Sequence record: NZ_CP048251.1
From: a plasmid
Direction: 5' to 3' (one strand)
DNA: 42,001 bases
The position numbers were made by a program. Shown here one piece after another: positions 12,001-15,000 of this stretch (its first letter is position 1; each line of letters opens with the position of its first letter).

Positions 12001-15000
12001 CAATGGGCAGTCCCTACGGCTGATGAGGTCAAAGAATTGTGGTTAGCAACGGGAATGACTCAAAAACAAGTTAGCAGGTATTTAGGGTTGAAAGACACCA
12101 ATGGTAGAGCTTTCAGGAGATTCATCAGTGGGGAATCATCCATCACATATGCCTATTGGGTTTTATTGAGCTTGTATGTGGGTATTGAGAAATTTTGGTA
12201 AATAAAATTTTAGCCGCTAAAATTGCTTGACAAATAGGATAATTTATCCTATAATACAAACTATATCGGACGGAGGCTCCTATGGACAGAATTAAATCCA
12301 AAGCTGGAAAAAAAATGTTTGAAGTGGTTTATATGGTGTTAGCTATCGCCTATTTGCTTTTCCCTGTCCGATGGTTTGCTTGGATGTACAGTTTCTATGT
12401 TTTGTGCCAAATGCTGTACCACTGGAATATGGCTGATTCATGGATTTATATCGGCAAATTTATCTTGACGTTCGGTATCGTAATGGGATGGCTCACTTTT
12501 GTTATCGCGTTCAGAAATAAAATATGAGGTGTAGGAATGAAGATTTTAGTGGTGGCAAACCAAAAGGGCGGGGTAGGAAAAACGGCTATGTCGCTTCATC
12601 TTGCCTGGCATATGGAAACAGTTGGACTGAGGGTTTTAGTAATTGATTTGGATACGCAGGGGAATGCGAGTTACTCTCTTCGAGACAAAACGTGTCTTTT
12701 CGGTTCCGGCCGTTTGTTTGGAAATATGGAAGATGCGGATTTACATATGCCCGGCAACGTTTCACTGGCTCTTTCCCCGGCGACAAACGATTTGGCTAAC
12801 GTGCAGAATATGACTTTGCAAAATGCTGTTCAGTCTTTTACGCAAAACATCGACAAATTAAAAGCGGGCGGGCAATTCGATGTCTGTATTATTGATACTC
12901 CGCCCAGTTTAGGTAACACGTTGGCGGCTGCACTGGCGGCCGGGGATTATGTGTTATGTCCGATCGAGTTGGAAACATACAGCCTACAAGGAATTAAACA
13001 GATGGCTGCAACAATAGGCAATATCAGAAAAGTGAACAGCAAATTGGCTTTTTTGGGTATATTGCCAAGTAAGGTCGATATGAGGAATCCGCGCCATAAA
13101 AGGCATTTGGAAGAAATTAAAATGCAGTATAATGAAATTGTAATACCGCATATTATCGGATTGAGGAGCAGTATCGCAGATGCGTTGTCTTCCAGCCTGC
13201 CGGTTTGGAAAATCAAGAAAACGGCAGCAAGAAAGGCGGCGCAGGAAATGAAAGCCGTTTCTAACTATGTTTTAAACAAAATGCAAGGGTAAAATTTATG
13301 AATAACAGTAATTTGGGTTTGGAAAACATCGGCAATCTCAGCGAACTTTTGGGTAATGCAGAGGTCTCATCAGGGACGCCGCTGCGCCTGCCCCTTGCTT
13401 CAATCAAAGAAGACCCCGATCAACCAAGAAAAGAATTTGACGAAGGAAAAATTCAGGAACTAGCAAACAGCATTCAGGAGAGAGGCGTGAAAACACCCAT
13501 ATCGGTGCGTCAAAGTTCCGAAGAAGGGGTCTATGTCATCAACCACGGCGCACGACGTTACAGGGCTTCATTGCTGGCAGGGCTGAGCGAGATTCCCGCA
13601 TATATCGATCAAGATTACAGCCTGATCGATCAGGCTGTTGAAAATATCCAGCGCGATAATCTAACGCCAAGGGAAATCGCCGACGTAATTGGCCGATTGC
13701 TGGCAGAGGGGATGAAAAAGGGACAGATTGCCGAAAAAATGGGCAAATCCCCTGCTTTCGTTACCCAGCATGCAAACCTGCTGGACTTACCCGAACCTCT
13801 GGCCAACGCATTCAACTCGGGGAAAGTATCCGATTTGACGGTAATCAATGACCTGAACGCATTGTATAAAAAAGAACCGGAAGCGGTGGAAGATTTGCTG
13901 TCTAACGAAGACGAGATTACCCGTAGTTCGGTAAGGAATTTGAAAGAGTTTTTAAACTCGGATCCTAAAAATTCTGCTGATGCCGATCATGAAAAGCCAT
14001 CCAAGGCAAAAGTGAAAGAGAAAAAGCCGGAAGATCCTGACAAACTGAAAAAAGCTATTGTGCAGGTAATGTATCAAGGCCAACTGGCAAGGCTGGTTTT
14101 GAACAAGCGCGGATTGTCTGGCGATGAGGTATGGATTAAGTTTGAGGAGTCCGGCGAAACAGAATCTGTTCCTTGTAAAGAAATTTCCGGGATTGTTGCA
14201 GTTATTGAAGGATAATACTGGGAATTTATTATAATACCCCCCCGTTTTAACGGGCTGCCCAGTTTTACTGCTGCCGGTATGTGCAAAATACCGAATCAGC
14301 AGGTTGATCAGAATTCATTAAATTAAATCATTTTAAAATCAAATATTTATGGGGGGGGGGGGGTATATTAAAGACTGTTCTGTTAGAATTATTCACATCT
14401 TTTTTGAAAATTTTTAGCAGAATGGAAGCAGAAAAACAAAGAGTGCTGGTATTGAACAAACAGCATTTGTTCGAGACAGAAAAAGACGGCAAATGGATTA
14501 CGCAGGCGGTTAAGCCTGCTCCTGCCAATATGAAGCCGGGAATTTATTTGCTGCATACGGCCAAATCTCCTCAGGATTCTGTCAGGTACGAAGGGCAAAT
14601 CGTTTTTCAAAATGACAGCTATGTTTATCAGAAAACACGACAGTCTATAGTCAAATACCCGTGTTCTCTATTTTCTTCCGTTCCGTCGATCGGAGAAGTG
14701 GTCTCAATCAGTGTCAAGGACAAAGCGGCAACAGTAGAAAAGGCGGGTATCGGAGAGAAAAAAACTTTAACGCGCTAAATGAAATTTTAGCCGCTAAAAT
14801 TTTAGGATAACACCATGAATGAAGATAAAGGGCTTGTAGCTAAAGCTGTTGCGGCTGAAACCGAACAAGAAGAGTTGTTTGAAAGCAGGCAGGTTATTGA
14901 GGAAACTTTCGCCGGTGTGTTAAATACTTATGTCTTGGAAAAGACAGAACAGGTTGAGCGCATAGAAGAAAAATTGGAGCAATTGATTTCCGGGCAAATG

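What the first reader, a model, noticed from the sequence alone, without database searches (positions are those of the whole stretch)
14422..14778. A ~115-aa domain shared by both zeta toxins (C-terminal) and a stand-alone ORF
zeta-1 (35630-36838) and zeta-2 (37064-38269) are each about 110-120 aa longer than canonical zeta/PezT. Their C-terminal tails align with each other and with orf14422 over the motifs RVVxNS.G.TL, MKAGIYLLGxAK, YSGEIxxKD..VFQKT.xGLxRH and VEIGQxVSI. The stand-alone copy sits in the KorB-regulated central region behind the poly-G tract. It may be a targeting, regulatory or neutralising module for the UNAG-kinase toxins, or a decoy.
Basis: seen in the sequence. Interest (0 to 1): 0.7.

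Follow-up and report, generated by a model that had tools for sequence, protein, structure and literature searches.

The report
KfrB module on gonococcal zeta toxins
The extra ~115-residue tail on both zeta toxins of the gonococcal conjugative plasmid is a copy of the plasmid's own KfrB protein, a known IncP "plasmid survival" adaptor that also turns up on other toxin families, so it most likely acts as an address tag and not as part of the toxic chemistry.

Summary
The window is the Neisseria gonorrhoeae conjugative plasmid. orf14422 is its annotated kfrB gene. The 401-aa toxin is ng_zeta1, whose crystal structure is solved (PDB 6EPG).

The domain is already in Pfam (PF18790), which models only its C-terminal half. 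The 2018 structure paper did not link it to KfrB.

- The same module sits at the C-terminus of Zeta, Fic (VbhT-like) and AbiEii toxins.
- These fusions often occupy the kfrB slot directly upstream of kfrC.
- One plasmid fuses a zeta toxin to KfrC instead.

Best reading: a portable docking module for the Kfr/KfrC plasmid scaffold. This is inferred, with about 0.45 confidence.

Main rival: an IncP-type counterpart of the BID secretion signal that sends toxins through the conjugation channel.

A function specific to zeta toxins, or a neutralising one, is not supported.

Interest is moderate.

The parts
14422..14778 (+). kfrB: stand-alone KfrB protein (118 aa), the complete module
   Evidence: ORF. 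RefSeq 'KfrB domain-containing protein' WP_003701856. Pfam PF18790 42.3 bits against a cutoff of 25. Family profile E=1e-37. About 38-44% identical over 79% of its length to proteins that sources name IncP plasmid survival protein KfrB. AF2 pLDDT 88.4, all-beta with 9 strands.
36470..36835 (+). KfrB module at the C-terminus (about aa 281-402) of the published zeta_2 toxin (CDS 35630-36838)
   Evidence: Family profile positions 2-114, domain E=6.9e-27. BLASTP to orf14422 E=6e-13. Pfam KfrB 21.5 bits, below the cutoff of 25. Zeta_toxin domain at aa 28-209, E=8e-41.
37913..38266 (+). KfrB module at the C-terminus (about aa 284-401) of ng_zeta1 (CDS 37064-38269); this is the 'OB-fold domain' of PDB 6EPG
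14815..15351 (+). kfrC, directly downstream of kfrB; the proposed docking partner
   Evidence: NCBIfam NF042916 IncP_KfrC_dom, E=5.9e-50. Same position as in IncP-1 plasmids.
13298..14215 (+). korB (ParB-type partition protein and global repressor), upstream of kfrB
   Evidence: Pfam ParB_N, KorB and KorB_C.
14786..14798 (+). KorB operator-type palindrome TTTAGCCGCTAAA in the kfrB-kfrC intergenic region
   Evidence: One of six perfect copies in the window; 0.06 expected by chance. That this palindrome is the KorB operator consensus rests on my knowledge of IncP-1.
14351..14363 (+). Poly-G tract (13 G) starting at the G of an ATG at 14349, 59 nt upstream of the kfrB start
   Evidence: Read from the sequence. 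A public variant, P0001, reads MGGGG... in frame with KfrB. Listed as a candidate phase-variable gene in bioRxiv 10.1101/2025.02.28.640638.
35364..35633 (+). epsilon_2 antitoxin ORF upstream of zeta_2
   Evidence: ORF. Gene order and naming from PMC2848598.
36872..37057 (+). epsilon_1 antitoxin (61 aa) upstream of ng_zeta1
   Evidence: ORF of 186 nt, the size listed in PMC2848598. Co-crystallised with ng_zeta1 (PMC5923241).

Best explanation
The shared ~115-aa unit is a complete KfrB protein. KfrB is the small all-beta, OB-fold-containing 'plasmid survival' protein of IncP-type conjugative plasmids. The gonococcal plasmid has it three times: as the stand-alone kfrB gene in the conserved korB-kfrB-kfrC slot, and as the C-terminal domain of both zeta toxins.

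Shown:
- The identity of the module.
- Its fold.
- Its repeated fusion to unrelated toxin families.
- Its genetic linkage to kfrC.

Inferred: the module is a protein-protein docking adaptor. On the toxins it tethers the kinase, or the epsilon/zeta complex, to the plasmid-associated Kfr scaffold. The likely partner is KfrC, because this plasmid has no kfrA. The catalytic domain and its epsilon antitoxin would work as in other zeta systems. Free KfrB would occupy the same site, so it could compete with the toxin-borne copies.

What the tether achieves is not resolved. It could co-localise the toxin with the plasmid and partition complex, or hand it over to the conjugation machinery.
For: 2. Orthology of orf14422. 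It is about 38-44% identical to proteins named IncP KfrB. It has the same synteny as IncP-1: incC-korB-...-kfrB-kfrC next to traM-traL-traK.
3. Known biochemistry. PMC8124265 states that R751 KfrA interacts with KfrC through the linker KfrB.
4. Gene-fusion evidence. Among the 150 best of 170 representative clusters, 15 of the 28 scanned proteins of 286 aa or more carry Zeta_toxin, 7 Fic, 2 AbiEii and 1 LPD7. In every one the KfrB module lies C-terminal to the other domain.
5. Fic-KfrB with a VbhA antitoxin sits in the kfrB slot directly upstream of kfrC in Eikenella, in IncP-1 plasmid pAKD4 and in a Klebsiella plasmid.
6. Zeta-KfrB sits in the same slot in a metagenomic plasmid.
7. In Aeromonas pKAM329_2 a zeta toxin is fused to the KfrC domain instead (NF042916, E=4e-53), next to free KfrB and KfrA. 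The constant in these fusions is the Kfr complex, not one fold.
8. Co-occurrence. KfrB is found in 376 PLSDB plasmids and KfrC in 388, with almost the same genus counts. KfrC was found on the same element in 8 of 9 element contexts with enough flank.
9. No kfrA homologue is found in the window or in the whole Eikenella plasmid, yet kfrB and kfrC are kept together.
10. In a rough NJ tree the fusions are scattered among stand-alone KfrBs, which suggests repeated recruitment.
Against: - No interaction data exist for any gonococcal protein. The R751 two-hybrid result is known to me only through a citing sentence, because the primary paper was not held.
- Fusions that lie in the kfrB slot could come from simple merging of neighbouring genes. 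The copies in the load region argue against this, but they do not prove a function.
- Two KfrB fusions lie in a Tra1 transfer region with no KfrC within 15.7 kb. One KfrB protein on a 904-kb plasmid has no kfr neighbours.
- The co-occurrence in PLSDB was compared by genus counts, not record by record.
- The structure paper reports no test of the C-terminal domain.
- OB folds often bind nucleic acid or sugars, and that was not excluded.
Confidence: 0.45

Rival explanations
1. Secretion tag. The KfrB module, with its basic C-terminal tail, is the IncP-type functional counterpart of the BID domain. It presents its cargo (KfrB itself, and Zeta, Fic and AbiEii toxins) to the coupling protein, so the cargo is exported to the recipient cell with the plasmid DNA during conjugation. 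The gonococcal zeta toxins would then act between bacteria, or enforce plasmid establishment. This can coexist with docking to KfrC.
For: [quoted passage not shown] The same toxin families carry KfrB on MOBP/MPF_T plasmids.
- The Fic domain of pAKD4 Fic-KfrB is 57% identical to Bartonella VbhT over aa 1-196. After that point VbhT continues with its BID-bearing C-terminal part, whereas pAKD4 continues with KfrB.
- 64 of 113 family representatives end in Arg. The last 12 residues carry a mean net charge of +2.5 and are disordered in the model. From my own knowledge, basic C-terminal tails are typical of VirB/D4-type signals.
- 351 of the 376 KfrB-carrying plasmids are predicted conjugative.
- KfrB fusions lie inside Tra1 regions next to ArdC/MPTase polyvalent proteins, and one is fused to LPD7.
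- RA3 KfrC binds the coupling protein VirD4 (PMC8124265).
- In RP4, kfrABC lies in the leading region and is zygotically induced (PMC7314908).
Against: - No translocation data exist for any KfrB protein.
- There is no sequence similarity between the KfrB profile and VbhT beyond the Fic domain (hhalign probability 0.1), or between the KfrB profile and Bep chains.
- In Beps the signal is BID plus the tail, not the OB fold (bioRxiv 10.1101/2024.03.25.586700).
- KfrC of RK2 and R751 did not bind TraG in BACTH (PMC8124265).
- From my memory of Adamczyk 2006, the reported phenotype of a kfrB knockout is plasmid loss, not a transfer defect.
Confidence: 0.25
2. Nucleic-acid or ligand binder. The OB-fold module binds plasmid DNA (single-stranded or double-stranded) or a sugar nucleotide. 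It would place KfrB and the toxins on DNA, or help the kinase capture UDP-sugar substrates.
For: - The structure paper classes the domain as an oligonucleotide/oligosaccharide-binding fold.
- The tail is basic.
Against: - Substrate help for the kinase cannot explain fusions to Fic and AbiEii, or the stand-alone form.
- UNAM and UNAM-4P were seen in the kinase active site, and the paper reports no ligand on the OB domain.
- KfrB is described as a protein linker, and the DNA-binding member of the operon is KfrA.
Confidence: 0.1
3. The first reader's regulatory, neutralising or decoy idea in its strict form. Free KfrB, or the tail acting in cis, directly modulates zeta kinase activity or epsilon binding.
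For: - Three copies sit on one plasmid, one of them free.
- A possible phase-variable poly-G tract lies ahead of kfrB.
- From my own knowledge, E. coli EzeT shows that zeta toxins can carry cis-acting regulatory domains; it is cited in PMC5923241.
Against: - Each toxin has its own epsilon, which blocks the ATP site.
- Stand-alone KfrB is widespread on IncP plasmids that were not seen to carry a zeta toxin.
- The module accompanies mechanistically unrelated toxins.
- The free copy and the toxin copies belong to different sub-lineages, at 27-30% identity.
Confidence: 0.08

Closest known systems
KfrB (Upf54.8) of IncP-1 plasmids RK2/RP4 and R751; Pfam PF18790 'KfrB domain'
   Same: orf14422 is a positional and sequence homologue. 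It has the same length class (113-118 aa) and the same korB...kfrB-kfrC|traM synteny. It is about 38-44% identical, and the family profile gives E=1e-37. The toxin tails match the same profile over its full length.
   Different: The gonococcal plasmid lacks kfrA, korF and korG. The Pfam model (54 positions) covers only the C-terminal half of the ~110-aa conserved unit. Two of the three copies are domains of toxins, not free proteins.
C-terminal 'OB-fold domain' of ng_zeta1 (PDB 6EPG/6EPH/6EPI; Rocker et al. 2018, PMC5923241)
   Different: The paper treats it as an orphan OB domain found only in gonococcal zeta toxins and one Eikenella homologue, and never mentions KfrB. Here it is one member of a family of at least 170 clusters at 50% identity, most of them free-standing.
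BID-fused TA toxins on conjugative plasmids (VbhT = FicT-BID; PezT-BID of Chelativorans; Harms et al. 2017, PMC5675462)
   Same: TA toxins of the same families (FicT, zeta/PezT) sit on conjugative plasmids. Each keeps a separate antitoxin and carries a non-catalytic C-terminal module acquired by repeated fusion. The Fic domains are close relatives: 57% identity between pAKD4 and VbhT.
   Different: The module is KfrB, not BID, and no sequence similarity was found. The plasmids are MOBP/IncP-like, not rhizobial MOBQ. Translocation is shown for VbhT and untested here. KfrB also exists as a free partition-accessory protein.
OB fold that follows the FIC domain in Bartonella effector proteins (BepA 2JK8, Bep1 7ZBR)
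   Different: Only about 67-73 residues align, at 6-12% identity. Profile searches do not connect them. The function of the Bep OB fold is itself unknown; a scaffolding role is suggested.

Membership tests
KfrB (Pfam PF18790 / IncP plasmid survival protein KfrB) | Match to the curated family model above its gathering score | tested here: met
   orf14422 scores 42.3 bits and ng_zeta1 29.5 bits against a cutoff of 25. The zeta_2 tail scores 21.5 bits, which is below the cutoff. It is nevertheless a full-length hit to the 98-sequence family profile (E=6.9e-27).
KfrB (Pfam PF18790 / IncP plasmid survival protein KfrB) | Homology over the whole ~110-aa protein to KfrB of IncP-1 plasmids | tested here: met
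   Hits that sources name 'IncP plasmid survival protein KfrB' are about 38-44% identical over 79% of orf14422. All three window copies span profile positions 1/2-114.
KfrB (Pfam PF18790 / IncP plasmid survival protein KfrB) | Gene position between korB(/kfrA) and kfrC, next to the traM end of Tra1 | tested here: met
   Met for orf14422. Not applicable to the two toxin-borne copies, which lie about 21-23 kb away in the load region.
KfrB (Pfam PF18790 / IncP plasmid survival protein KfrB) | Binds KfrA and KfrC; contributes to stable plasmid inheritance | not testable with these tools
   Reported for R751, as cited in PMC8124265. There are no data for the gonococcal proteins. kfrA is absent here.
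Zeta/PezT UDP-sugar kinase toxins (the carriers of two copies) | Zeta_toxin kinase domain with a P-loop and an upstream epsilon antitoxin gene | tested here: met
   PF06414 E=8e-41 for zeta_2 and 4.6e-10 for ng_zeta1. ng_zeta1 is identical to the crystallised UNAG/UNAM kinase. Small ORFs lie directly upstream of each.
OB-fold superfamily | [quoted passage not shown] | tested here: met
   [not shown]
BID-type T4SS signal domains on TA toxins (VbhT-like) | C-terminal domain homologous to BID | tested here: not met
   hhalign of the KfrB profile against full-length B. grahamii VbhT gives probability 0.1. No BID family appears in the Pfam scans of the toxins.
BID-type T4SS signal domains on TA toxins (VbhT-like) | T4SS- and coupling-protein-dependent transfer into recipient cells | not testable with these tools
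   Only circumstantial evidence: a basic C-terminal tail, location on conjugative plasmids and the parallel with Harms 2017.
Bep FIC-OB architecture | Detectable sequence homology of the OB region | tested here: not met
   [not shown]

The most novel reading that the evidence does not exclude
KfrB is the IncP-world equivalent of the BID domain. It would be a portable OB-fold module with a basic tail that recruits its cargo to the Kfr/coupling-protein complex. Zeta, FicT and AbiEii toxins, and KfrB itself, would then be injected into recipient cells together with the plasmid's leading region. On this reading the two gonococcal zeta toxins are conjugation-delivered effectors that enforce plasmid establishment or kill non-permissive recipients, and are not only post-segregational killers.
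Probability: 0.2. Interest if true: 0.8.

Novelty: already known. Interest (0 to 1): 0.42.

Why it matters
The plasmid, the kfrB gene, the two epsilon/zeta systems, the crystal structure of the domain and a Pfam family for it all already exist. As stated, the finding is therefore a rediscovery.

What has not been connected in the papers I could search:
- The unexplained 'OB-fold' domain of ng_zeta1 is KfrB.
- KfrB modules are repeatedly attached to three unrelated toxin families, often inside the kfr operon.
- A zeta toxin can be fused to KfrC instead.

This gives a concrete, cheap hypothesis for two long-unexplained items: what KfrB does, and why Gram-negative plasmid zeta toxins carry an extra domain.

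It also bears on the persistence and spread of the gonococcal tetM conjugative plasmid. If the secretion-tag reading were right, it would extend the 'TA toxin turned conjugation-delivered effector' idea from rhizobial plasmids to the medically important IncP/MOBP plasmids.

Tried and rejected
- Single-sequence AF2 of orf14422 gave pLDDT 48 and was unusable. It was replaced by a run with a 63-sequence alignment.
- The word-indexed protein search with orf14422 alone found only near-identical gonococcal proteins. The exhaustive profile search was needed.
The afdb50 fold library was unavailable.
- Test for sequence homology between KfrB and the region after FIC in VbhT and the Beps: negative. I therefore do not claim homology with the Bep OB fold, only structural resemblance.
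- Pfam (E up to 1) and NCBIfam gave nothing convincing for the N-terminal parts of five KfrB fusions (P0022, P0071, P0089, P0124, P0145) or for the 345-aa protein in L015.
- Contigs for the AbiEii-KfrB and LPD7-KfrB proteins and for P0071 were too short to give context.
- The list of KfrC homologues showed only its best 120 entries, all 178-227 aa with no precomputed Pfam domain, so it gave no count of toxin-KfrC fusions.
- The primary R751 paper (Adamczyk 2006) and the supplements of the polyvalent-protein paper were not held.
- Rejected: a role of the tail in UDP-sugar recognition, because the module also occurs on Fic and AbiEii toxins and alone.
- Rejected: that the toxin tails are recent copies of the resident kfrB. 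They are only 27-30% identical to it and fall in a different branch.
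Full report
**1. What the window is**

The region 13000-16000 is 99.9-100% identical to 32 Neisseria gonorrhoeae conjugative plasmids of 39-43 kb, typed MOBP / MPF_T. The annotated order there is trfA ... ParA(incC) - ParB(korB) - 'KfrB domain-containing protein' - 'KfrC family protein' | (traM) - traL - traK - traJ - traI. Pachulec and van der Does (PMC2848598) named the 357-nt gene kfrB in 2010. They listed Zeta-1 (1206 nt) and Zeta-2 (1209 nt) in the genetic-load region.

So orf14422 is kfrB. The ORF at 37064-38269 is the published zeta_1. The ORF at 35630-36838 is the published zeta_2. 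The 401-aa protein is residue-for-residue the 'Zeta_1 toxin' of PDB 6EPH/6EPI.

Yes.
- BLASTP of orf14422 against the two toxins gives E=6e-13 and 2e-12 (27-30% identity over about 120 columns). The hits are confined to the toxins' last ~120 residues.
- The two tails are 46% identical (E=7e-32).
- A profile built from 98 family members finds exactly three hits in a six-frame translation of the window. Each spans the whole profile: E=1e-37, 7e-27 and 2e-26. The next hit has E=1.5.
- An AlphaFold2 model of orf14422 made with a 63-sequence alignment is confident (pLDDT 88.4) and all-beta, with nine strands.

**3. What the domain is**

- Pfam already holds it as PF18790 'KfrB domain'. orf14422 scores 42.3 bits and ng_zeta1 29.5 bits, both above the cutoff of 25. 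zeta_2 scores 21.5 bits, just below.
- The Pfam model has 54 positions and matches only residues 55-105 of orf14422. The family alignment shows that the conserved unit is the whole ~110 residues. The consensus runs k.Rl.VMNGq...G.W...kV.kAg.lKpGIYNL..A..Ad....y.G.i.H.D...VYQ.......H....F...P.iG....I.Y..G.a.v.
- An exhaustive profile search of 1.84 billion representatives found 170 clusters with E below 1e-3. Most are free-standing proteins of 105-125 aa.
- A word-indexed search with the family profile returned 526 proteins. The best 120 were all 113-129 aa. Where a source gives a name, it is 'IncP plasmid survival protein KfrB', 'KfrB protein', 'conjugal transfer protein TraO' or 'cell filamentation protein'.
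- In IncP-1 contigs the gene lies in incC-korB-korF-korG-kfrA-kfrB-kfrC next to traM-traL-traK. This is the position orf14422 occupies, except that kfrA, korF and korG are missing. An HMM of three KfrA proteins finds nothing in the window or in the whole related Eikenella plasmid.
- The ng_zeta1 structure paper describes the C-terminal domain as an OB fold. It says that, apart from gonococcal zeta toxins, only one Eikenella homologue has it. The paper never mentions KfrB and contains no word starting with 'truncat'.

**4. Where else the module is found**

I scanned the 28 proteins of 286 aa or more among the 150 best representatives.
- 15 have an N-terminal Zeta_toxin domain.
- 7 have Fic.
- 2 have AbiEii.
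- 1 has LPD7.
- 3 have no recognisable N-terminal domain.
- In every case KfrB lies C-terminal to the other domain, and two proteins carry it twice.

Genomic contexts:
- (a) The Eikenella exigua plasmid, a 39.8-kb relative of the gonococcal plasmid, has ParA-ParB-VbhA antitoxin-[Fic-KfrB, 342 aa]-KfrC. A toxin-KfrB fusion occupies the kfrB slot. Its load region carries a 401-aa zeta-KfrB, and a second VbhA with a Fic-KfrB of 357 aa.
- (b) IncP-1 plasmid pAKD4 has korB-kfrA-[62-aa ORF]-[323-aa Fic-KfrB]-kfrC. Its annotators also marked the last 114 codons as 'kfrB'. A Klebsiella IncP-like plasmid has the same layout.
- (c) A metagenomic plasmid has [Zeta-KfrB, 441 aa]-KfrC|traM-traL-traK.
- (d) Aeromonas pKAM329_2 has kfrA-kfrB-[92-aa ORF]-[472-aa protein with Zeta_toxin at aa 35-223 and the KfrC domain at aa 306-452, E=4e-53]|traM. 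This is a zeta toxin fused to KfrC and not to KfrB.
- (e) A Zeta-KfrB-KfrB protein with a ParD-like antitoxin lies beside Tra1 genes, 6.5 kb from a KfrC gene.
- (f) Two KfrB fusions lie between traX/traG/traF and an ArdC-MPTase polyvalent protein. No KfrC is seen in the 15.7 kb available.

In PLSDB, tblastn finds KfrB in 376 plasmids, of which 351 are predicted conjugative. It finds KfrC in 388 plasmids. The genus counts are almost identical: Escherichia 80/79, uncultured 78/78, Neisseria 32/32, Xylella 22/22, Klebsiella 19/19.

A rough neighbour-joining tree, with no support values, scatters the fusions among free KfrBs. It places the two gonococcal tails with the Eikenella load-region Fic and Zeta tails. 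The gonococcal kfrB groups with the Eikenella slot-type Fic-KfrB.

**5. How it most likely works**

Shown: the module is KfrB, it is non-catalytic, and it is recruited again and again by toxins of unrelated chemistry while each toxin keeps its own antitoxin. It is also genetically tied to kfrC.

From the literature:
- In R751, KfrA interacts with KfrC through the linker KfrB (PMC8124265).
- The Kfr proteins are accessory to the IncC/KorB partition system (PMC7783346).
- RP4 kfrABC lies in the leading region and is zygotically induced on entry into a recipient (PMC7314908).

Inference: the toxin-borne copies are docking modules that attach the toxin, or the toxin-antitoxin complex, to the Kfr scaffold. 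On this kfrA-less plasmid that most probably means KfrC. The zeta-KfrC fusion is the strongest single argument, because what the fusions share is the complex and not a particular fold. I put this docking mechanism at about 0.45.

**6. Main rival**

[quoted passage not shown] The parallel is close.
- The Fic domain of pAKD4 Fic-KfrB is 57% identical to B. grahamii VbhT up to residue 196, where the two proteins diverge.
- After the Bartonella VbhT orthologues, the best plasmid hits to VbhT's FIC domain are these Fic proteins on kfrB-bearing IncP-1 plasmids, at 58.5% identity.
- 64 of 113 family members end in Arg, against an Arg frequency of 5% inside the domain. The last 12 residues average +2.5 net charge and are disordered in the model.
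- RA3 KfrC binds VirD4.

Against this reading:
- I found no sequence link to BID or to the Bep OB fold.
- The Bep OB fold is not the secretion signal.
- RK2 and R751 KfrC did not bind TraG.
- No translocation data exist.

I put it at about 0.25. It is compatible with docking to KfrC. Nucleic-acid or sugar binding (about 0.1) and direct regulation of the kinase (about 0.08) fit the distribution of the module poorly.

**7. Comparison with what is known, and novelty**

The plasmid, kfrB, both epsilon/zeta systems, the crystal structure of the domain and the Pfam family are all public. RefSeq already labels the Fic fusions 'KfrB domain-containing protein'. The finding as written is therefore already known at database level.

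None of the 20 full-text papers containing 'KfrB' links it to the toxin domain. The pieces that appear unconnected are these:
- the ng_zeta1 'OB domain' is KfrB;
- the unit is twice the length of the Pfam model;
- it is a recurrent C-terminal partner of Zeta, Fic and AbiEii toxins, often inside the kfr operon;
- a zeta-KfrC fusion exists;
- the architecture parallels BID-fused toxins.

These are hypotheses for the bench, not a new kind of system.

**8. Verdict**

- Observation: confirmed.
'Targeting' fits the evidence. A function specific to UNAG kinases or a neutralising role does not.
- Novelty: already known.
- Interest: moderate (0.42). The result gives a testable function for two unexplained items and bears on the biology of the gonococcal tetM plasmid.

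Noticed in passing
window 14349-14421: An ATG at 14349 runs straight into 13 G (14351-14363). With 13 G this frame stops after 21 codons. With 12 or 15 G it would read through into kfrB and add a 24-residue N-terminal extension. A public gonococcal variant (P0001: ...MGGGGILKTVLLELFTSFLKIFSR-MEAEK...) has exactly this. A 2025 preprint lists kfrB as a candidate phase-variable gene. I saw no clear Shine-Dalgarno sequence before either ATG.
   Followed up: partly
window 9917, 12209, 14786, 17728, 23402, 34342 (13 nt each): There are six perfect copies of the palindrome TTTAGC(C/G)GCTAAA, against 0.06 expected by chance. This is the IncP KorB operator type. One lies in the 36-nt gap between kfrB and kfrC. 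Another (34342-34354) lies at the start of the load region, about 1 kb upstream of epsilon_2/zeta_2.
   Followed up: partly
L009 6741-8159 (Aeromonas caviae plasmid pKAM329_2, NZ_AP024138.1): A 472-aa protein combines a Zeta_toxin kinase domain (aa 35-223) with a KfrC domain (aa 306-452, NF042916, E=4e-53). It sits in the kfrC slot after kfrA, kfrB and a 92-aa ORF that may be its antitoxin. I found no description of a toxin-KfrC fusion.
   Followed up: partly
L005 37933-39195 and 16868-18261 (Eikenella exigua plasmid NZ_CP038019.1); L008 3795-4951 (pAKD4): VbhA-type antitoxin genes are followed by Fic-KfrB fusion toxins. One of these pairs replaces the stand-alone kfrB between parB and kfrC. 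In pAKD4 the annotators marked the last 114 codons of the 323-aa Fic-KfrB ORF as 'kfrB'. The pAKD4 Fic domain is 57% identical to Bartonella VbhT.
   Followed up: yes
[not shown]
   Followed up: partly
C-termini of KfrB family proteins (window 14743-14775, 36800-36835, 38231-38266): The family has a conserved, disordered, basic C-terminal tail, typically ...[RK]-x-x-S-R at the very end. 64 of 113 representatives end in Arg, and the last 12 residues have a mean net charge of +2.5. All three window copies end in R (KKTLTR, KKTMKR, KKSISR).
   Followed up: partly
L002 4377-5723 (IncP-1 contig): The 448-aa KfrC of RK2-type plasmids carries its KfrC domain at the C-terminus (aa ~283-462 of the open frame). 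A long N-terminal part has a faint phosphoribosyltransferase hit. KfrC domains therefore also occur as C-terminal modules on larger proteins.
   Followed up: no
L015 719-1756 and 7001-8698 (metagenome-assembled contig JAWVHC010002320.1): Two proteins with unknown N-terminal regions and C-terminal KfrB modules (345 and 565 aa) flank traG, traF and an ArdC-MPTase-DUF5710 polyvalent protein. No KfrC lies within the 15.7 kb seen.
   Followed up: partly
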